NCBI GenBank assembly: GCA_963702095.1
Contig: OY969706.1
Span: forward strand, 2,208,001-2,272,000
DNA from: Candidatus Bathyarchaeota archaeon
GTDB lineage: Archaea; Thermoproteota; Bathyarchaeia; Bathyarchaeales; Bathycorpusculaceae
Length of the DNA stretch: 64,000 nucleotides
Direction of reading: 5' to 3'
Within the stretch, counting starts at the first letter, position 1. Each line of letters opens with the position of its first letter. The notes beneath the pieces were generated by a model, which saw nothing but the letters and a program-made list of their open reading frames with translations, made no database searches and was not told where the DNA came from. The translations under genes were made by a program, and so were the position numbers. This document shows positions 17,581 to 61,667 of the stretch, piece by piece.

Positions 17581-17634
17581 ACACTAACTTGATTGATTTA
17601 AAGCCATCGCAACTAACGGGTAGGTCGTTTTTTG

Positions 17635-17768
17635 GTTTTTTCTATAGTAGTTGTTGCAGGAAACCGCCTATACACAACAACAACCAGCGGCTTGTGCAGG
17701 CGACCCCGTTTTTGAATCAGCTATCCCCTGTAACTGCAGACTGGTTGTGGCTGAATCTACAAACAGAA
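17635..17768 (+). repeat. Dispersed repeat family C, copy 1 (inverted copy at 61423-61556)
   Basis: Shared TATAGT.GTTGTTGCAG.AAACC.CCTATACACAACAACAACCAGCGG, then 44 variable nt, then TGCAG.C.GGT.GTGG...ACAAACAGAA. Confidence 0.8.
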
Positions 17769-17781
17769 AGGACTAATTGAC

Positions 17782-28078: not shown

Positions 28079-28241
28079 GATGAAACACCAAGTTAACCCA
28101 CCGACAAATACAGTAATGCATAAAAATTAATCGCGTCCACGGAGCAGTTTAGCTTGGAGAATTCATCAAAGGCTGAATCAGCCATGGTGAGCCGCCCATT
28201 TCTTTGGCATACAGGGAGAAACCCCGAGTATTGTAGCGGAA

Positions 28242-28363
28242 TGGTGGCGGGGGTGGGACTTGAACCCACGAAGGCCTGCGCCAGAGGATCTTAAGTCCTC
28301 CTCCATATCTTAGGGGCAATAGGTTAATCTGGCCCTATTTAGACCTGGCTCGGATACCCCGCC
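28242..28363 (-). tRNA. tRNA-Leu(TAA) with 34-nt intron at position 22/23 (28305-28338); CCA encoded
   Basis: GGCGGGG/CCCCGCC acceptor stem, GAGGA-CTTAAGA-TCCTC anticodon arm, long variable arm, GTGGG-TTCAAGT-CCCAC; BHB-like junctions restore the D arm GGTCTAA|GGAG. Confidence 0.92.
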
Positions 28364-28554
28364 ACCAGCACCCCGATAAAGTCCAATCTGGCATAGTTAA
28401 AGTTTTTTGCATTCCAGAAGTAAAATGGCAAAAATCTACTCACCCATTTTTGTTCCTAATAACAAGGGCAAAAAAACGCTGGAGATGAACCGGCTAAAAC
28501 CCTAAAAATGTGAGCGCCCGGTGCAAAACCAGCAAGACCTAGACCTAAAAAAAA

Positions 28555-29376: not shown

Positions 29377-29431
29377 CTGACTGTTTTTTGAACGATTTTT
29401 TTGTCGTTTCCTTGAATTTTTTAATGGAAGC

Positions 29432-29570
29432 AGTTTGAGGAAAACGCCTCAACCAGCCAGCAACCCAGCGGGATAACAGAATCCAAAATACAGTCGTCTG
29501 CCAAGTCCGCTGGAAGAAGAAGAGTAAGGGCAAGCCTGCCTTCATCTAACACTAGAAAAACAAAAGCTCA
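29432..29570 (+). repeat. Dispersed repeat family D, copy 1 (inverted copy at 45352-45492)
   Basis: Identical CGCCTCAACCAGCCAGCAACCCA and TCTAACACTAGAAAAACAAAA blocks, ungapped similarity between them. Confidence 0.85.
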
Positions 29571-30413
29571 GACAATTTTGCTATTTTCAAGCTTTTTTAG
29601 CATGCTGCCTGTGCGGTAACCTTCCAAATCAAACGTCACGTAAGTAAACCCCAACCCCTTGAGCGCCAAAACCACCCGATCCATAACTGATTCATCAAGG
29701 AATAGTTTGCGCTCTTCTTCGCCGACTTCTATGCGGGCTAATCCGTCGTGGTCTCGAACCCTCAGCTGGCGAACAGGCACGATCTCCTCGATGGCTTGCT
29801 CAGCTTGGTAAATGCGGCTCAGTTTCTCAGCGGTTATAGGCTGATTGAACGGTATCCGTGAAGCCAGACATGCGTGTGAGGGCTTATCGTAGACCGTTAA
29901 GCCGAGGTTTTTGGCTACTTGGCGGATTTCGTCTTTGCTAAATTTAGTTGCGACCCAGGGGCTGTAAACGCCGTGGGTTTCCTGTACCGCCCTAAAGCCG
30001 GGTCGGTGTTCGCTTAGGTCGTTGAAGTTGGTGCCTTCAAACACCACTGAGTAGCCGTGTTGATGGGCGAATTTGAGGAGGTTTTGGAGAAGCTCCTTTT
30101 TGCAGTGGTAGCAGCGGTCTGTGGGGTTTCGGCGGAAATCTTCGTTTTCCAATTCGTGGGTGTGTATGACGTAGAGGTCTATGGCTATGTCTTTGGCAAG
30201 TTGCTGGGCATTCCGCAAATCCTTAGGCGTGTAAGTGGGCGATTGCGCGATGATGGCTACTGCTTTTGAACCCAGAACTTGATGTGTGATTGCCGCCAAG
30301 GTGGCGCTGTCTACGCCGCCTGAAAACGCGATGACGACGCCGTCTTTGCCCTTATCAGCTATGAATGCCTTGAGCTCTTCTATTTTTTGTTCTAAGGATT
30401 CCACGTTAATCAC
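29568..30413 (-). CDS. larE: ATP-dependent sacrificial sulfur transferase LarE
   Basis: AFSGGVDS PP-loop, RCYHCK, HRPG, ACLASRIP, LRVRDH, GYRTGSM. Confidence 0.93.
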   Translation of the reverse strand: MINVESLEQKIEELKAFIADKGKDGVVIAFSGGVDSATLAAITHQVLGSKAVAIIAQSPTYTPKDLRNAQQLAKDIAIDLYVIHTHELENEDFRRNPTDRCYHCKKELLQNLLKFAHQHGYSVVFEGTNFNDLSEHRPGFRAVQETHGVYSPWVATKFSKDEIRQVAKNLGLTVYDKPSHACLASRIPFNQPITAEKLSRIYQAEQAIEEIVPVRQLRVRDHDGLARIEVGEEERKLFLDESVMDRVVLALKGLGFTYVTFDLEGYRTGSMLKKLENSKIV

Positions 30414-32590: not shown

Positions 32591-32740
32591 TGCCGGTTGA
32601 GGAACACGCTTCACGGCAACATGCGATCTGTGCCTTCAGTAATTGCTAAAGACCGTCCAGAGATAATATCAAAGGAGAGCGGCTTTGCCAAGTGCTAAAG
32701 ACAGTCGGTGATTGCAGTGGGGTTTAGACTCAACACGGCA
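32591..32740 (+). ncRNA. Putative BHB-closed rod-shaped ncRNA, family A copy 2
   Basis: TGCCG-GTTGAG/CTCAAC-A-CGGCA stem, GAAC/GTTT helix with ACG and AGA bulges, apical GAT-AAT-ATC hairpin; AATATATT box about 25 nt upstream. Confidence 0.7.
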
Positions 32741-32767
32741 CACAATATTTTTATTTCCTTCTTGCGT

Positions 32768-32875
32768 TGGTTTGCTGGGGCTCTGGAACCCGTCTAAGGA
32801 GAAAAGAATGGAAAATGCAACTAAACCATTCTCAACCGCAACTGCATTAACTATATCCAGAGCCCACTCAGCCCA
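32768..32875 (-). ncRNA. Putative BHB-closed ncRNA, family B copy 1
   Basis: Minus strand: TGG-GCTG-AGT-GGGCTCTGGA...TCCAGAGCCC-CAGC-AAA-CCA, a canonical BHB; homologous to 53852-53950. Confidence 0.7.
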
Positions 32876-32935
32876 CATTTTTACTTTCAATTTATCCCAA
32901 AAAAGGGAAAGGGGAGATTGATTCGTGTTTGTGTT

Positions 32936-35591
32936 TTATGCTCGTTTCCTGAGTATGAGTAGTCCAACGACTGCTATTGCAATGATTATAGCGATTGTTG
33001 CACCGACTATGTACATCATGAGGTCTGAAGTTGTTGCATAGTTTACTGCGTTGACGGTTGGTGTGGGTGTTGAGGCTGATTCGTCGACTGCGAAGCTTGT
33101 TTCTGCTGATGATGGCCAGTAGCCGTTGGTTCCAGCGAATGATGCGTAGAGGAGGTATTGGCCTGAAATGTCTGGGACCCATCGGTAGCTGTATGTGCCG
33201 GTTAAGTCAGTTTGTGTTTCGCCGATTTGTCGGTAGTTGCCGTTAGCATCCACCACTGATAGAGTCACAGTGACACCGCTAGCATTTGCGGGTATGGGTT
33301 TCTGCTGGTAGACGTATCCCATCCAGTCTTTCATGCTGCTATCAGAAACGCATGCGACGCCGTCGGGGAATCTTACTGCTTGCTCATCTTGTGTTGTGCC
33401 GCTAGATAAGTCAGTGACTGCGCCTCTGATGACGATGCTTTGTCCTGGTGCTGCTCCCAGATCAGGTGCAGTTACTGTGGTTTTGCTTGCTCCTCTGCCA
33501 ACAACGTAGACTGAGCTGTCATAACTGTTGAACCATGTAGAGAAACCGTCTGCAATTGCGTAGCTTGTGCTGCCGAATTCCATTGTAGCAGAAGAGATTG
33601 TCCAGATTTCTTTGCCGTCAGTTGCGTTAACTGCACGTGCTAAGCCGCCCTTGTAGATGGGAGACGTCCATGTATGTTCACTCGTAACCAAGTAGACTAC
33701 ATCATTGCCGATTGCGTTGACGAATGTTGGTATGTTGCCGTATGGCCAGTTGAAGCCGCTGTTGGTACTGTTACCTTCGCCGCCGTTACCATAAGTCCAG
33801 AGTAGATCGCCTGTTTTCATGTCGTAGCAGTAGAGTATGCCCGCCATTGCCATGCTGTAGAGTTTGCCGTAAGCAATTTGGCCTGATAATACGCCTGCAC
33901 TGGGGCTGCCGTAGTAGTCGAAGGCTGCTTGAGGCTCAGATTGCCAGATTTTTTCACCTGAATCTAAGCTGTAAGCTACCCACATGACGCCTTCTTTTAG
34001 CGATTGTAGGAATACACGGCTATCCCAGTCCACTCCGGCTTGGATGACAGTGTAGTTGTTTGCTGGAGGGTCTAATGTCTTCCACCATGATACTGAGCCG
34101 ATTGTGCCTTTAGTTGAGTCGAGGTTGACAAAGAAGTACGTGTAGGGAGTGCTGCTTGGTGTTGGGAATAAGTTGTTTTCGCCGTTTGAAGGGAATGTAC
34201 CGTTGTAGCATAAGATACCGTCTCCGTATTTGGACATAATTATATTTGTCGGGTTAGTTCCCGCTGTTTTTGTCGGCATTGTGTTTAGCCATGGTACAGA
34301 TATGTTCCAGTCATAGCACCAAGATGCCCCGCCGTCCAAATTCCCGAATTTAGGTGCTGCAGCAGTAATTCCCTCGCCATATATGAAAACTTTAGTTAAG
34401 TTCCACTGACATAAACACCAATCAGGGTTTTCAGCAGTGCCTGCATTAGCCAAGACATATTGTAAGTATTCGCCGTCTGAACCCATAGCCTTTGCACCTG
34501 ACGGAACATTGGTTATGTTAACTACGGCTTTGTCCTGTGTCCGCATCGTAGCCAAGCCAAGTAGTGCCGCTCTTAGCATATAGAATCGGTTGGCAAACGC
34601 CGTGTTCATTTTGTGTTTGTACATCCATGATATAGCCGAAAGACAACGCTGGTATGTCTTTTTCCCAAAGTACTTCGCCTGTACGTAAATCGACGCACGC
34701 TAGTGGCCCTTGACCGCCGTTGTTGCTAAATCCAAAGTTTACGGGTTCTTTGTAGTAGATTTTGCCATTCAATATTATGGGGTTGTCGTATCTGATGATG
34801 TAAGCTGAGCCGTCAAAGTATGTGTTGCCTTGAATTTCATAGTTGTCTCCGCCGACTACACCACCGGCTTGCAGAGCTTTAGTCCACATAACGTGGCCAG
34901 TCTGAGAACCGATAGCATCGCCTGGGAACATTGCCTCGCCGCCCATGAAGCCCATCTGGGCTGAACCAGAAGAGGCGTAGCCACCATAGTTGGGTGCGCC
35001 AGTGCCTAGCCAGTTCGATGAGATGCTCCACCAATCGGTGTTCTCACCATAAATTGGGCGAGTCCAGTATTCAGAAGGCAAAGGATAGCTTGTGATGGCT
35101 GCGGGTATAGGGTCTTCTTGTACGGTTAGAGTAGTGGATGCACTGCTTGGCAAGTAAGTGTCATTTACGTAGGCATTGCCTGCGTCTGAAGCGTATGTTT
35201 CTCCGGGGTAGGTGAAAGTTAAATTATAGGTACCGACTTGGTCTGGAGTGAAAGTGGCAAGCTGAGCAGCGGTTGTGTCTCTGATGGTATCAAAAGTCTG
35301 CGTTGAAACCTCACCGTTAGGCGCAGTAATAGTAAGCTTATAGTTATGGAACCTGAGATTGTCTGTTCCGTACTGTGATCCGAAATAGTAGTTAGTGAGC
35401 ATCAAAAAGACATTCGCTTGTTGCCCAACACCGACTGGGTTAGGCGCAACGGAAATCAATGCATATGTTGGCCACTCGGTTGGAGGATCGTGTGCTAAAG
35501 CTGTTGGCAATAACGTTGCAACTGTTCCAATAGATATGGTTAGGATCATAGCGATTGCGATAGCGATTATTTTCGTTTTAGATAGTTTCAA
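32936..35591 (-). CDS. Secreted PQQ-like beta-propeller repeat protein with C-terminal anchor, one frameshift (~34530)
   Basis: Signal peptide, PNPVGVGQ, LPSEYWTRPI, DLRTGEVLW, YDMKTGDLLW, FAGTNGYWPS; two overlapping ORFs join. Confidence 0.85.
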
Positions 35592-36834: not shown

Positions 36835-37086
36835 ACACTTTTTAGTCGAAAACTTTTGCGATTTTTGTGCTATGACTGGAGTGGGAGAAGTGAAGGAAAA
36901 AATTAGCAAAGTCTTACTCTACTCTTTTTGTTAATAGCTATTTATTTTATGTTTTTTCAATAATAAAATTGTTTCTTGGGGTGGGTTGGGTTTGTGGTTG
37001 GTTGACGGGCAAATTTCCTCTTTGATGGGCCATGCTATTGCGCTTGCATTTTGCTGTTCATCGCTGTCGCTAAGAAAGCACTTGAT

Positions 37087-37259
37087 ACATGCTTTCACAT
37101 ACACACCGAGACGGTTTCAACATGGAACCATGCACCGCATGTGAAGAAAAACGGTTATCCCACACCGAAACAGGCAAAGGAAAACGTTGCAACCGCAAAA
37201 AGAAGCCGCCCCACGTGCAGTCTTTTGGCAATTCTAAAACCCTCACACCCACATAAAGA
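37087..37259 (+). repeat. Dispersed repeat family E, copy 1 (direct copy at 55240-55411)
   Basis: Shared CACACCGAGACGGTTTCAACATGGAAC, TCCCACACCGAAACAG, AAAACGTTGCAACC, TGCAGTCTTTTGGCA. Confidence 0.9.
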
Positions 37260-37337
37260 GACATAACAATTTGCGCTTCAACTGAGGGCAGAAGAAGTAG
37301 GCTGTCGCGGATTTTCGCTGCTTTCGATGGAAAAAAG

Positions 37338-45213: not shown

Positions 45214-45351
45214 AACTTTGTAATCCTGTTAATCTTGAGCTAAAAAATAGCCGAAATTAACTTGACCATAAAAGGAATACTTTGACATAAACATTTGGTT
45301 ACCTACAAGGAAAAATCTCATTAATTTATAGGTAACAATTTTCTGAGGGGT

Positions 45352-45492
45352 GGGTTTTTGTTTTTCTAGTGTTAGAAGAAGATAATCTCGCCCTTACTCA
45401 TCATCTTCCCATGGGCTCGGTAGGCGGCTGTGTATTATGTTTTGCAATGGAAATGGGTTGCTGGCTGGTTGAGGCGGATTCCACAAGCAGAA
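45352..45492 (-). repeat. Dispersed repeat family D, copy 2
   Basis: Reverse complement aligns with 29432-29570. Confidence 0.85.
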
Positions 45493-45850
45493 CCAAAAGA
45501 ATTGTATTATACTGATAAGCAAAATTCCAAATCACCATATTTTTGATTTAAATAATGGAAGCTGCAAAACAGAGCCCTTGGGTGCGAGAGAGGTTCCCTT
45601 TTGGGAGGTGCACTCGCTGCCTTGAATGATTCAGTCGGTCATAGAAGGGTTTGTATATATAGTTGGCTTCTACAAGTTGCAGCTAGTTGAGCGAGTAGCA
45701 GTTCGGATTCGCGAGAGCAAAGGAAATCAAAACGTGAATCTTGAATATTACAGTTCACATACCGTTTGGTTCTGAGCGCATATTCAGAAAAGGATAGTCG
45801 AGCAAACTAGCAAGCTCAAGCGTTATCGATGCAAAAACTTATCTTTCGAA

Positions 45851-53851: not shown

Positions 53852-53950
53852 GGGTATATTGAGGCCTTGGAATAATTAAAGTAAGAAAGATGGAAATGCA
53901 AACCCTATTCCACCGCGAATAGTTAATTCTTCCAAAGCCCTTTCAACCCC
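53852..53950 (-). ncRNA. Putative BHB-closed ncRNA, family B copy 2
   Basis: Minus strand: GGG-GTTG-AAA-GGGCTTTGGAA...TTCCAAGGCCT-CAAT-ATA-CCC; TTATAAAT box about 30 nt upstream. Confidence 0.7.
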
Positions 53951-54277
53951 TTGAACAGTTCTGAGCAGCATTTTTCAGTATTTATAATTTGCGACTCACC
54001 TCTTTTATTATGCCTTTTATTTAGGTAAAAGGGGCTAAAACGTTTAATCTTCGTCAATATTAATCAATTAGGCATCTTTTTTAGCAATTAAACCGACATT
54101 TTCACATCCCTCAGAATTCCCTGCGCCATTACTTTGATGATGACTTGGAACGGTAAGATGAGTTCCATTTAACCCATTTGTTAGTAATAAGCTAAGAAAG
54201 CCGAAACTTAGCTTAGTAACCAAACCTAATCTTACAGGAAACCTTTTATCAGAAATGCAGGCTAATCAGAGATTGGA

Positions 54278-55165: not shown

Positions 55166-55239
55166 AAATGGACTGTTTTATGTGCGCTTATGCTAGTTCT
55201 ACCGATAGAAATTGTATGTCAATTTTTTAAGCGTCTCCA

Positions 55240-55411
55240 ACATGCTTCACATCCACACCGAGACGGTTTCAACATGGAACATGCACCGCGTGTGGAGGAA
55301 AAAGCACTTCCCACACCGAAACAGACGCAGAAAAACGTTGCAACCCCAAAAAACAATCGCCCCCAGTTGCAGTCTTTTGGCACCCCACAAAACCCCACAC
55401 CCACACAAAGA
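55240..55411 (+). repeat. Dispersed repeat family E, copy 2
   Basis: Aligns with 37087-37259. Confidence 0.9.
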
Positions 55412-55465
55412 CAAAAGAACACAGCCAATCCAGCTAAACAAAAAAACAAAACAAGCAACGGTTCT

Positions 55466-55552
55466 CCATGCACAGGCAGAGCATATCTGAAACGCCTAAC
55501 TTTTTCGAAACATGTGTGTCTCATCTAAATATCGCTCAGACACTACATTGAC
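55466..55552 (-). other. 3' arm of the 23S rRNA processing stem
   Basis: CCATGCACAGGCAGAGCATAT...GAAACATGTGTGT...CAGACACTAC is the inverted complement of 58577-58667. Confidence 0.85.
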
Positions 55553-55559
55553 TCGACAT

Positions 55560-58570
<3,011 letters not shown>

Positions 58571-58576
58571 CGGGCC

Positions 58577-58667
58577 AATGGTAGTGTCTGTTTGGCGTTT
58601 AGTGAAACACACATGTTTCAAATATATAGTGTTTTGGCGTCGTTGTATATGCTCTGCCTGTGCATGG
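58577..58667 (-). other. 5' arm of the 23S rRNA processing stem (near-BHB: CGCC-AAA / AGCG-ATA)
   Basis: Long inverted repeat with 55466-55552. Confidence 0.85.
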
Positions 58668-59167
58668 TGTCATTTTGAGCGCCAGTAGCGCCCATTCACC
58701 GCTTCACTCCTCATCGTGTTATGGTGGGGAGTTGCATTTACTTGTGTAACCCATGTTACTGGGATTGCATAAGAAGCAGACTCGGCGAATATAAGTGTTA
58801 TGTTACACTTCATCCGCGATTGTCGTCGGTGCCTTATCAGCTTCCGAAGCGCTTCTCCGCATGTGCACCCACATTTTTTTTGGGCAGCATCCCTTAACGA
58901 TAGGGAAACAAACTAAGCATCAAACCCTCAAATAAACCTGTCGCACTAGATAGAACAACAGAACAATATTTTGTTCCAGTTAAGACCATTTAAAAAGAAT
59001 TTTTTTGGGGCTTTTTGAGGCGCTTTTGTTTAATTTCAATCTCCAAGTTCCCGCCTAAACCAGATGTGTGCTAGCGTATAGAAAGCCAAGAACGTGTTTA
59101 TGTTCAAAAAGCGGTTGTTTACTACCCCATTTAGTAATGGTAAATAGTAAGGAACCCCTCTATATTC

Positions 59168-61341: not shown

Positions 61342-61422
61342 CTCAAAAAAATAAAATTTGATATCAGCATTACTGATTAAAAACAATATAGCAACACGGA
61401 AACAGAGTCAAATATTGTTTTT

Positions 61423-61556
61423 TGTTCTGTTTGTGTTTTGCTCCACTACCTGCCTGCAATCGCCCTCAGACGCTAAAACCCAACAGCAATGCACCGCCAG
61501 TTCCGCTGGTTGTTGTTGTGTATAGGGGGTTTTCTGCAACAACAACTATAAGAAAA
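61423..61556 (-). repeat. Dispersed repeat family C, copy 2
   Basis: Reverse complement aligns with 17635-17768. Confidence 0.8.
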
Positions 61557-61667
61557 ATGCAAACCATCCAAACTTTGATCTGCTGTATAAGGAAGGGGGT
61601 CAATGCAGAGCGATGGGTTTGCTAACCCAATGTTTCGCGGTTTTAGCTGCCATTACAGGTTTTTACT

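What the first reader, a model, noticed from the sequence alone, without database searches (positions are those of the whole stretch)
32768..32875. Family B: second, unrelated family of BHB-closed small RNAs (32768-32875 and 53852-53950, both minus strand)
Seen: copy 1 reads TGG-GCTG-[AGT]-GGGCTCTGGA...TCCAGAGCCC-CAGC-[AAA]-CCA and copy 2 reads GGG-GTTG-[AAA]-GGGCTTTGGAA...TTCCAAGGCCT-CAAT-[ATA]-CCC. Both have canonical helix, 3-nt bulge, 4-bp helix, 3-nt bulge geometry, with compensatory changes in the outer and central helices. The G-U pairs only work on the minus strand. Interiors share TTAA, GCGGT..GAAT and TTGCATTT(T)CCAT(T)CTTT. Copy 2 has TTATAAAT about 30 nt upstream. Inference: EndA-excised circles of about 95 nt (32772-32866) and 86 nt (53856-53941). 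The conserved pyrimidine-rich segment could be a protein-binding or base-pairing element. A second family with the same processing signal argues for a general BHB-based circRNA system rather than chance.
Basis: partly seen in the sequence, partly recalled or inferred. Interest (0 to 1): 0.85.

Follow-up and report, generated by a model that had tools for sequence, protein, structure and literature searches.

The report
BHB-closed RNA family behind surface genes
A folded RNA element of about 100 bases, repeated some 30 times in this Bathyarchaeia genome just after genes for membrane-anchored surface proteins, has the conserved shape cut by the tRNA-splicing enzyme and a stretch antisense to those genes' ribosome-binding sites, so it may be an undescribed archaeal regulator.

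Summary
Both sequences read as described. Each can form helix, 3-nt bulge, 4-bp helix, 3-nt bulge, helix on the minus strand. They are not a family of two. Copy 1 is one of about 27-31 copies in this 2.94-Mb archaeal genome. The family occurs in 21 of 24 other genomes of the genus and in a second family of the order, almost only in records labelled Bathyarchaeota/Bathyarchaeia. No Rfam 15 family matches, and four literature searches found no description.

The inner helix and an internal hairpin covary. The bulges stay 3 nt. In a sister lineage the outer helix is 8 bp with compensatory changes. G-U pairs outnumber A-C three to one, which fits an RNA on this strand.

Of 141 elements, 129 lie 39-99 nt after the stop codon of a surface-protein gene that ends in a membrane anchor. 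Two EndA-domain genes and RtcB are present.

The exposed pyrimidine-rich interior is antisense to the ribosome-binding region of that gene family. The two motifs change together between lineages. This signal is strong in one sister genome and weak in the window's own genome.

Cleavage, circles and expression remain untested because no RNA data were available. Verdict: a real, apparently undescribed structured RNA family. EndA processing is plausible, and a regulatory role is a lead.

The parts
32768..32875 (-). Copy 1, whole element (108 nt): outer helix, central helix, two 3-nt bulges, inner helix and interior
   Evidence: Covariance-model score 129 bits, but this copy was in the model's training set.
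32866..32875 (-). Copy 1, 5' side of the BHB: outer TGG (32873-32875), central GCTG (32869-32872), bulge AGT (32866-32868)
   Evidence: In paralogs only GG of the outer helix is conserved.
32856..32865 (-). Copy 1, inner helix 5' strand GGGCTCTGGA; pairs with 32778-32787
   Evidence: Both-sided changes in 8 of 10 pairs and 9 of 10 pairs.
32804..32833 (-). Copy 1, internal hairpin: GAGAATGG (32826-32833) pairs with CCATTCTT (32804-32811); the 14-nt loop contains TTGCATTTT
   Evidence: Hairpin pairs covary in 5 of 6.
32796..32815 (-). Copy 1, pyrimidine-rich segment TTTTCCATTCTTTTCTCCTT; its reverse complement reads like a Shine-Dalgarno site, a spacer and an ATG
   Evidence: The motif's mean predicted unpaired probability is 0.74, against 0.44 for the whole molecule (137 elements).
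32768..32787 (-). Copy 1, 3' side: inner TCCAGAGCCC (32778-32787), central CAGC (32774-32777), bulge AAA (32771-32773), outer CCA (32768-32770). Paralog homology ends here.
32899..32904 (-). T-run between the upstream gene and copy 1, read as the terminator of the surface-protein gene
   Evidence: A run of 5 or more T lies upstream of 133 of 145 elements. Paralogs without an element still have it.
32936..34624 (-). Upstream gene, C-terminal part (562 aa): PQQ-like propeller, C-terminal membrane helix and basic tail. Its stop codon is 60 nt before the first base of copy 1.
34518..35591 (-). Probable N-terminal part (357 aa, with signal peptide) of the same family gene, in another reading frame
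   Evidence: Full-length paralogs are about 840-900 aa. The split was not examined further.
53852..53950 (-). Copy 2, whole element (99 nt), a stand-alone divergent member. 5' side: GGG (53948-53950), GTTG (53944-53947), bulge AAA (53941-53943), inner helix 53930-53940. 3' side: inner helix 53862-53872, CAAT (53858-53861), bulge ATA (53855-53857), CCC (53852-53854).
   Evidence: Scores 73 bits, but was in the training set. Ortholog in G007.
53980..53987 (-). TTATAAAT, a TATA-box-like sequence 29 nt upstream of copy 2; identical in the G007 ortholog

Best explanation
These are two members of a Bathyarchaeia-specific family of structured RNAs of about 100 nt. Each element lies about 60 nt past the stop codon and T-run terminator of a gene for a large, C-terminally anchored PQQ-propeller surface protein. 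A few, such as copy 2, stand alone behind their own TATA box. The ends of the RNA pair into a canonical bulge-helix-bulge.

My best reading has three steps:
1. The precursor is made either by read-through of the gene's terminator or from a promoter of its own.
2. The tRNA-splicing endonuclease EndA cuts it in the two 3-nt bulges. This releases a 95-nt piece from copy 1 (32772-32866) and an 86-nt piece from copy 2 (53856-53941). RtcB may close the piece into a circle.
3. The released RNA exposes a pyrimidine-rich stretch that is antisense to the Shine-Dalgarno and start-codon region of the surface-protein mRNAs. It would therefore mask their ribosome-binding sites and tune or cross-repress translation within the paralog family.

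Shown here: the family, its structure and covariation, its genomic linkage, the presence of the enzymes, and the complementarity with its lineage-level co-variation. Inferred: transcription, cleavage, circularisation and the regulatory effect.
For: Family and distribution:
- 26 BLAST relatives of copy 1 in the own genome and 31 covariance-model matches.
- Matches in 21 of 24 other genomes of the genus, plus G040 of another family.
- In a class-wide draw, 11 of 151 genomes had it. These were family f1 (7 of 15) and f7 (3 of 5). None of 130 genomes in 29 other families had it.
- 75 of the 80 listed rows of the genome-contig scan are labelled Bathyarchaeota, Bathyarchaeia or similar.

Structure:
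- In 32 elements from 24 genomes, 95% of cells pair, against 87.6% in shuffles. 14 of 22 pairs change on both sides, and 0 of 500 shuffles reach the observed values.
- In 121 elements, 9 of 10 inner-helix pairs change on both sides.
- Bulges are 3 nt in all 32 elements.
- In 20 elements from other genera and families, the 8-bp outer helix is 75.6% paired and 4 of 8 pairs change on both sides.
- In 148 elements the outer helix averages 3.69 bp, against 3.13 bp for permuted partners; 0 of 1000 permutations reach it.
- G-U to A-C counts are 123:41 and 40:9.

Genomic linkage:
- 129 of 141 elements lie 39-99 nt after an ORF ending in a membrane helix and basic tail.
- In the own genome, 20 of 26 paralog C-termini carry an element.
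- The paralogs are only 30-65% identical in protein, while the elements are about 76-93% identical in DNA.

Stand-alone gene: copy 2 and its G007 ortholog share the TATA box and the element. Similarity stops right after the 3' CCC.

Enzymes: two EndA-domain genes, RtcB, and 9 of 50 predicted tRNAs with introns.

Antisense relation:
- GGAGA occurs in 30 of 57 family translation-initiation regions (TIRs), against 50 of 368 ORFs in the same loci, a set that includes the family genes.
- A perfect complement of 8 nt or more to the adjacent element occurs in 21 of 57 family TIRs, against 13 of 283 others.
- Lineage f7 uses GAAGG in 10 of 17 TIRs and CCUUC in 11 of 20 elements. It has GGAGA in 1 of 17 TIRs and UCUCC in 0 of 20 elements. 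The other set has UCUCC in 116 of 145 elements.
- In G040 the best complement per family TIR has a median of 13 nt, and 10 of 11 reach 12 nt. For 132 other ORFs the median is 7 nt, and 6 of 132 reach 12 nt.
- The longest perfect complement is 22 nt and is confined to the TIR.
- The motif's predicted unpaired probability is 0.74, against 0.44 for the whole molecule.
Against: - No RNA evidence of any kind was available. Expression, cleavage and circles are all unobserved.
- The central helix (GCUG/CAGC), the GG/CC outer pairs and the AAA bulge are almost invariant in sequence. They therefore give no covariation. EndA should not need this invariance, so another reader of the motif is possible.
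- In the window's own genome the outer helix is only 2-3 bp. Copy 2's central helix is thermodynamically marginal.
- A T-run that looks like the gene's terminator lies between the gene and the element, so read-through is an assumption. The distance from T-run to element varies (mostly 22-37 nt, up to 94 nt), so a fixed promoter geometry is not evident.
- The antisense signal is weak in the window's own genome. The median best complement is 8 nt against 7 nt, and 2 of 7 family TIRs reach 10 nt against 4% of 2130 other ORFs.
- With a start-agnostic 300-nt zone the enrichment falls to 16 of 86 against 6 of 119 at 10 nt or more.
- Both motifs are low-complexity (purine-rich against pyrimidine-rich). 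Start codons were called by simple rules, and related sequences are not independent.
- Copy 2 lacks the CUCC core.
- The leader and the element's own interior show no co-evolution; 82 of 200 permutations reached the observed energy.
Confidence: 0.5

Rival explanations
1. The element is a cis-acting structured part of the surface-protein transcripts and is not cut by EndA. Read-through transcripts end in this stable stem. The stem might protect the 3' end, bind a protein that reads the conserved bulged helix, or fold back on the mRNA's own ribosome-binding site. In this reading the BHB-like geometry is a protein-binding platform or a coincidence of that fold.
For: - Fixed position and orientation after the gene in 129 of 141 elements.
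- Near-invariant sequence of the bulges and central helix, which EndA should not require.
- Complementarity to the family's TIRs would also allow 5'-3' pairing in cis.
Against: - A T-run of 5 or more T separates gene and element in 133 of 145 cases. It is also present behind paralogs that have no element, so most transcripts probably stop before the element.
- Stand-alone copies exist with their own conserved TATA box.
- The best complements are between different paralogs, not within one gene and its own element.
- The exact spacing of 3 nt, 4 bp and 3 nt, with the pre-tRNA handedness, is kept in 32 of 32 and 20 of 20 elements.
Confidence: 0.25
2. The element is a selfish dispersed DNA repeat (MITE-like) or a DNA-level recombination site. 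It is one of several repeat families in this genome and has no RNA function.
For: - It is multi-copy and has a 10-bp inverted repeat near its ends.
- The window holds at least three other dispersed repeat families, with 44-95 BLAST hits each in the genome.
- A few copies sit away from the gene family.
Against: - 91% of copies lie at one position and in one orientation relative to one gene family, across many genomes.
- The ends are not inverted repeats of each other beyond the 4-bp helix, and the alignment of flanks showed no target-site duplication.
- Pairs are kept through G-U three times more often than through A-C. That fits RNA, not duplex DNA.
- Compensatory changes occur in three helices.
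- The pattern was not found in viral contigs.
Confidence: 0.07
3. The functional strand is the opposite one. The reverse complement of the element carries a strong Shine-Dalgarno site, an ATG and a short ORF (window ORF 32712-32921 on the plus strand, which internally contains an ATG-led 37-codon frame), so it might encode a small peptide.
For: The reverse complement reads as a near-ideal TIR in both lineages.
Against: - Indels that are not multiples of three shift the frame between close copies.
- By my reading of the printed sequences, ORF lengths differ widely and the predicted peptides of the two lineages are unrelated.
- The G-U bias puts the structure on the element strand.
Confidence: 0.05

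Closest known systems
Archaeal BHB substrates of the splicing endonuclease EndA and the ligase RtcB: tRNA introns and 16S/23S rRNA processing stems
   Same: Two 3-nt bulges on opposite strands, 4 bp apart, between two helices. The handedness is that of pre-tRNA. The enzymes are encoded here. Excised pieces of known substrates are circularised (passages read in PMC7714728 and PMC12558985).
   Different: The element is not inside a tRNA or rRNA. It is a free-standing multi-copy family tied to protein-coding genes. The sequence of its bulges and central helix is nearly invariant. Cleavage was not shown here.
BHB intron in the 5' UTR of HVO_1309 of Haloferax volcanii (PMC7714728, abstract and passages read); Cbf5 mRNA intron (cited there)
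   Same: A BHB in a protein-gene transcript, outside tRNA and rRNA.
   Different: Those are single loci, and the excised piece has no known role. Here there are dozens of conserved copies per genome, downstream of genes, with a conserved interior.
Non-coding RNAs matured through a BHB: the C/D box sRNA in the tRNA-Trp intron (passage in PMC12558985); the permuted SRP RNA of Thermoproteus (recalled, not read here)
   Same: A functional small RNA is released or rebuilt by EndA and ligase at a BHB.
   Different: No C/D boxes and no Rfam match. It is not an intron of a known gene.
Antisense small RNAs that mask ribosome-binding sites, including 3'-UTR-derived bacterial sRNAs and Methanosarcina sRNAs (recalled, not read here)
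   Same: An accessible pyrimidine-rich seed complementary to the Shine-Dalgarno and start region of target mRNAs. The element lies at the 3' flank of a gene.
   Different: Proposed release is by the tRNA-splicing enzyme rather than RNase E. There is one copy per paralog of a gene family. No expression data exist.
Miniature inverted-repeat elements and other dispersed repeats
   Same: Short, multi-copy, with an internal inverted repeat.
   Different: Fixed position and orientation behind one gene family, no target duplication seen, and RNA-type covariation.

Membership tests
Canonical BHB (hBHBh') substrate of archaeal EndA | Two 3-nt bulges on opposite strands | tested here: met
   Copies 1 and 2. 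32 of 32 elements from 24 genomes. 20 of 20 from other genera. 20 of 22 own-genome copies; two have a 2-nt 5' bulge.
Canonical BHB (hBHBh') substrate of archaeal EndA | Bulges separated by exactly 4 base pairs | tested here: met
   GCUG/CAGC pairs in 99-100% of cells. The helix is invariant, so there is no covariation, except that copy 2 and its ortholog keep the pairs through U-A, U-G and G-U. In copy 2 only 2 of the 4 pairs form in the minimum-energy fold.
Canonical BHB (hBHBh') substrate of archaeal EndA | A helix on each side of the motif | tested here: met
   The inner helix is 10-11 bp and covaries. The outer helix is only 2-3 bp in the own genome. It averages 3.69 bp against 3.13 bp for permuted partners. 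It is 8 bp with compensatory changes in lineage f7.
Canonical BHB (hBHBh') substrate of archaeal EndA | Handedness as in pre-tRNA: 5' strand runs outer, central, bulge, inner; 3' strand runs inner, central, bulge, outer | tested here: met
   Read directly.
Canonical BHB (hBHBh') substrate of archaeal EndA | Endonuclease and ligase present in the organism | tested here: met
   Two tRNA_int_endo matches (97.8 and 75.3 bits). RtcB at 600 bits. 9 of 50 predicted tRNAs carry introns.
Canonical BHB (hBHBh') substrate of archaeal EndA | Cleavage in the bulges, with a circular or ligated junction observed | not testable with these tools
   No RNA run was listed. The junction pattern scan gave one unrelated hit.
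Any described RNA family (Rfam 15) | Match to a covariance model | tested here: not met
   Nothing at gathering score. Nothing on the element strand above noise at E up to 10.
C/D box or H/ACA guide sRNA | C and D boxes with a K-turn, or a pseudouridylation pocket with an ACA box | tested here: not met
   No box C motif in either copy by reading. No snoRNA-type Rfam hit on the elements. The box definitions are recalled.
MITE or dispersed mobile repeat | Terminal inverted repeats at the very ends, target-site duplication, insertion in varied contexts and orientations | tested here: not met
   The ends are not inverted repeats beyond 4 bp, and no duplication was seen. 129 of 141 elements are in one context and orientation.
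Y RNA / Ro60 particle | A Ro60 (TROVE) protein in the genome | tested here: not met
   No TROVE match in the own genome, which is 90% complete.
Trans-acting antisense sRNA masking a ribosome-binding site | Accessible seed complementary to target TIRs above background | tested here: inconclusive
   Seed unpaired probability is 0.74. The signal is strong in G040: 10 of 11 against 6 of 132 at 12 nt or more. It is moderate in the scan set: 21 of 57 against 13 of 283 and 16 of 86 against 6 of 119. It is weak in the own genome: 2 of 7 against 4%.
Trans-acting antisense sRNA masking a ribosome-binding site | Seed and target change together | tested here: met
   GGAGA with UCUCC in one set, GAAGG with CCUUC in f7. 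Within-lineage complements exceed cross-lineage ones: 7.87 against 5.97 nt and 6.79 against 6.38 nt. The samples are small and related.

The most novel reading that the evidence does not exclude
Each paralog of a Bathyarchaeia surface-protein family carries behind it a gene for a small RNA. The tRNA-splicing endonuclease cuts this RNA out of the transcript, and RtcB closes it into a stable circle. The circles are antisense to the ribosome-binding sites of the whole paralog family. Transcribing one paralog would therefore dampen translation of the others. That would be an RNA-based dosage or mutual-exclusion switch for the cell surface, built on the tRNA-splicing machinery.
Probability: 0.2. 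Interest if true: 0.88.

Novelty: new variant of a known kind. Interest (0 to 1): 0.72.

Why it matters
Known substrates of the archaeal splicing endonuclease are tRNA introns, rRNA processing stems and a very few single mRNA sites (passages read in PMC7714728 and PMC12558985). A conserved multi-copy family of BHB-bounded RNAs linked to one gene family would widen the role of that enzyme to making regulatory RNAs.

It would also give the first candidate regulatory RNA for Bathyarchaeia, a widespread group that is mostly uncultured. It would tie that RNA to the cell-surface proteins that dominate these genomes.

The hypothesis is directly testable. The predicted cut sites, the circular junction and the target sites are all stated to the base. 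The covariance model can be used to annotate the family in other genomes.

Tried and rejected
- Known RNA families: Rfam at gathering score on the whole window and at E up to 10 on both loci gave nothing on the elements.
- Protein coding on the element strand: rejected. Close copies differ by indels that are not multiples of three, and many copies read ATG GGC TGA.
- Y RNA idea: no Ro60/TROVE gene.
- Integron attC idea: the core sites as I recall them are not at the ends, and the upstream genes are paralogs rather than diverse cassettes. The motif is recalled only.
- Leader against own-interior pairing: no co-evolution; 82 of 200 permutations reached the observed energy.
- Promoter geometry from the T-run: the spacing is too variable, and paralogs without elements keep the T-run, so I read it as the gene's terminator.
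- Downstream terminator: a run of 5 T within 30 nt occurs in only 23 of 145 elements, against a 6.9% background.
- Expression: no RNA holder was listed by the look-up of sequencing runs.
- Circular junction: a scan of metagenome contigs for the predicted junction gave one hit. It is an unrelated sequence with no model match. That collection may hold no transcript data, so this says nothing either way.
- Viral contigs: 0 matches to the family pattern.
- Strict BHB descriptor: 182 hits against 107-119 in shuffles. It is a poor discriminator and caught only 9 of 28 copies.
- A 23-of-25 match to the reverse complement of the core at G000:C1:968683 precedes only a 10-codon frame and is unexplained.
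- NCBIfam gave no sorting-signal model for the C-terminus.
- Literature: searches found no description of such an RNA in Bathyarchaeia. One search was badly posed. Supplementary files were not consulted.
Full report
OBSERVATION. On the minus strand copy 1 (32768-32875) is TGG-GCTG-[AGT]-GGGCTCTGGA...TCCAGAGCCC-CAGC-[AAA]-CCA. Copy 2 (53852-53950) is GGG-GTTG-[AAA]-GGGCTTTGGAA...TTCCAAGGCCT-CAAT-[ATA]-CCC. TTATAAAT lies 29 nt upstream of copy 2. The minimum-energy fold of copy 1 is exactly helix, 3-nt bulge, 4 bp, 3-nt bulge, helix. In copy 2 the weak central helix forms only in part. The window is archaeal. It holds a 23S rRNA gene at 55549-58575 without a 16S gene beside it.

A LARGE FAMILY, NOT A PAIR. 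Copy 1 has 26 BLAST relatives of 60 nt or more in its own 2.94-Mb single-contig genome, at about 76-93% identity. The similarity stops exactly at the 3' end ...CAGCAAACC. A covariance model built from 22 own-genome copies finds 31 matches in the own genome. It also finds matches in 21 of 24 other genomes of the genus and in one genome of another family, with 1 to 29 per genome. In a class-wide draw, 11 of 151 genomes have it. All belong to two families of one order (f1, 7 of 15; f7, 3 of 5), and none of 130 genomes in 29 other families has it (stricter filters were in use). Of the 80 rows listed, 75 are labelled Bathyarchaeota, Bathyarchaeia or similar. The other five are short or differently labelled metagenome bins. 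Copy 2 is a divergent member with one ortholog, in the closest relative G007.

STRUCTURE.
- In 32 elements from 24 genomes, 95% of cells form standard pairs, against 87.6% in column shuffles and 25-55% when partners are slid. 14 of 22 pairs show changes on both sides, including 8 of 10 in the inner helix and 5 of 6 in the internal hairpin.
- In 121 elements from the pattern-scan loci, 9 of 10 inner-helix pairs change on both sides. The first pair is A-U in 55, G-C in 52 and G-U in 11. That set was selected by a pattern that fixes the ends, so it says nothing about the central and outer helices.
- Both bulges are 3 nt in all 32 elements. The 5' bulge is AGU 14, AGA 11, AAA 5, AAU 2. The 3' bulge is AAA 30, AUA 1, AAG 1.
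- The central helix GCUG/CAGC and the GG/CC outer pairs are almost invariant, so they neither support nor contradict pairing by covariation.
- Copy 2 and its ortholog are the exception. They keep all four central pairs through U-A, U-G and G-U.
- The outer helix is short in the own genome (2-3 bp). Over 148 distinct elements it is longer than with permuted partners: mean 3.69 against 3.13 bp, and 6 bp or more in 11.5% against 3.6%, with 0 of 1000 permutations reaching these values.
- In 20 elements from other genera and family f7, an 8-bp outer helix is 75.6% paired, and 4 of 8 pairs change on both sides.
- G-U pairs outnumber A-C mismatches 123 to 41 and 40 to 9. That places the structure on the element's strand, the same strand as the upstream gene.

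CHANCE. One BHB shape is not remarkable. A strict descriptor finds 182 in the genome, against 107, 115 and 119 in block shuffles. Only 9 of 28 family copies pass it. The case rests on conservation across genomes.

CONTEXT.
- In the own genome, 18 of 27 copies follow mutually homologous ORFs.
- 20 of 26 detectable paralog C-termini carry an element within 250 nt, and one more has a degenerate copy.
- Across Bathyarchaeia loci, 129 of 141 elements lie 39-99 nt after the stop codon of an ORF that ends in a hydrophobic helix and a basic tail such as RKRP.
- The window's example has a PQQ-type propeller match. The paralogs share only 30-65% protein identity, much less conservation than their 3' elements show.
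- A run of 5 or more T lies between stop codon and element in 133 of 145 cases, usually 22-37 nt before the element. Paralogs without an element keep it, so I read it as the gene's terminator.
- Copy 2 stands alone. Its TATA-like box and the element are conserved in G007, and similarity ends right after the element. That looks like an independent small gene.

MACHINERY AND INTERNAL CONTROLS. The genome has two EndA-domain genes, with open frames of 208 and 186 aa. This fits the two-subunit type (inference). It also has RtcB. ARAGORN predicts introns in 9 of 50 tRNAs. By eye, the flanks of the window's 23S gene form a long processing stem with a bulge-helix-bulge-like site of the same handedness (sequences; not tested further).

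THE INTERIOR.
- The most conserved interior feature is a pyrimidine-rich stretch. UCUCC occurs in 116 of 145 elements. Its predicted unpaired probability is 0.74, against 0.44 for the whole molecule.
- Its reverse complement reads like a ribosome-binding region. The surface-protein genes have purine-rich initiation regions of the type AAGGAGAAAA...ATG.
- GGAGA occurs in 30 of 57 family initiation regions, against 50 of 368 ORFs in the same loci, a set that includes the family genes.
- A perfect complement of 8 nt or more to the adjacent element occurs in 21 of 57 family regions, against 13 of 283 others. At 10 nt or more the counts are 9 of 57 against 1 of 283.
- With a start-agnostic 300-nt zone the contrast shrinks to 16 of 86 against 6 of 119 at 10 nt or more.
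- In lineage f7 both partners differ. GAAGG is in 10 of 17 initiation regions and GGAGA in 1 of 17. CCUUC is in 11 of 20 elements and UCUCC in 0 of 20.
- Complements are longer within a lineage than across lineages: 7.87 against 5.97 nt, and 6.79 against 6.38 nt.
- In G040 the best complement per family initiation region has a median of 13 nt. 10 of 11 reach 12 nt, and the maximum is 22 nt. For 132 other ORFs from 200 kb of the same genome the median is 7 nt and 6 of 132 reach 12 nt. Among those with signal-peptide-like starts, 5 of 47 reach 12 nt.
- The similarity is confined to the initiation region.
- In the window's own genome the signal is weak. The median is 8 against 7 nt, and 2 of 7 reach 10 nt against 4% of 2130. 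By duplex energy, the GGAGA-bearing family regions fall within the best quarter of the background, at roughly the 4th to the 23rd percentile.
- Starts were called by simple rules, the motifs are low in complexity, and the sequences are related. I treat this as a strong lead, not a result.

MECHANISM. I commit to the following model.
1. A precursor is made by read-through of the gene's terminator or from a promoter of its own.
2. The precursor pairs its ends into a BHB.
3. EndA cuts between the second and third bulge bases (rule recalled). This releases 32772-32866 (95 nt) and 53856-53941 (86 nt).
4. RtcB may circularise the piece. The conserved CAGCAA plus the next base would then become a 7-nt loop capping the inner helix.
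5. The exposed pyrimidine stretch pairs with the ribosome-binding regions of the family's mRNAs.

Shown here: the family, the fold, the linkage, the enzymes and the complementarity. Inferred: every RNA-level step.

RIVALS.
- An uncleaved cis element of the transcripts (0.25).
- A selfish repeat or DNA site (0.07).
- An antisense small ORF (0.05).
Evidence for and against each is given in the fields above.

KNOWN RELATIVES AND NOVELTY. No Rfam 15 family matches. Searches of the paper library found no description of such an RNA. The passages I read list tRNA introns, rRNA intermediates and one 5' UTR as BHB-derived circles (PMC7714728, PMC12558985). They also report circular rRNA forms in Bathyarchaeia (PMC12918454, passages). 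I therefore rate this a new variant of a known kind: known processing signal and known type of regulator, but a new family, a new genomic arrangement and a new lineage.

LIMITS. No RNA run was listed. Supplementary files of papers were not seen.

Noticed in passing
window 28235-28374 (-): A tRNA-like gene that ARAGORN and Rfam at gathering score both missed. It has a T-arm, an acceptor 3' strand and an encoded CCA. By eye it also has an anticodon arm reading UAA (Leu), with an insertion of about 35-40 nt in the 5' half. This is probably a non-canonical intron. The whole gene also sits inside a BHB-like shape in my descriptor scan.
   Followed up: partly
window 17627-17769 and 61417-61581; 29429-29583 and 45351-45502; 36965-37281 and 55223-55442: At least three other dispersed repeat families, each with 44-95 BLAST hits in the genome. 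One copy lies in the 3' flank of the 23S rRNA gene.
   Followed up: partly
window 32936-35591 (-): The surface-protein gene upstream of copy 1 appears split into two overlapping frames (357 aa and 562 aa), while its paralogs are about 840-900 aa. This is a frameshift, a pseudogene or an assembly error.
   Followed up: partly
window 55300-55548 and 58576-58740 (-): The flanks of the 23S rRNA gene pair over more than 100 nt. By eye they include a BHB-like site with AAA and AUA bulges. The 16S gene is elsewhere, at G000:C1:2048161-2049650.
   Followed up: partly
G000:C1:968683-968707 (+), outside the window: A 23-of-25 match to the reverse complement of the element core lies directly after the stop codon of a 395-aa ORF. 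Only a 10-codon frame follows it. Unexplained.
   Followed up: partly
G000:C1 about 1864700-1864900 (-), outside the window: One family paralog is followed by a degenerate element. The closing helix is recognisable but the interior is different.
   Followed up: no
G000:C1:2279303-2305672 (-), just outside the window: Seven elements about 4 kb apart, all on one strand, each behind a paralog. This is a tandem array of surface-protein genes.
   Followed up: partly
elements of other genomes, e.g. L040, L045, L047, L052, L065: The purine-rich leader 10-15 nt upstream of many elements contains GGAG (57 of 145) or a GCAWTG motif (20 of 145). No co-evolution with the interior was found, and its role is unknown.
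   Followed up: partly
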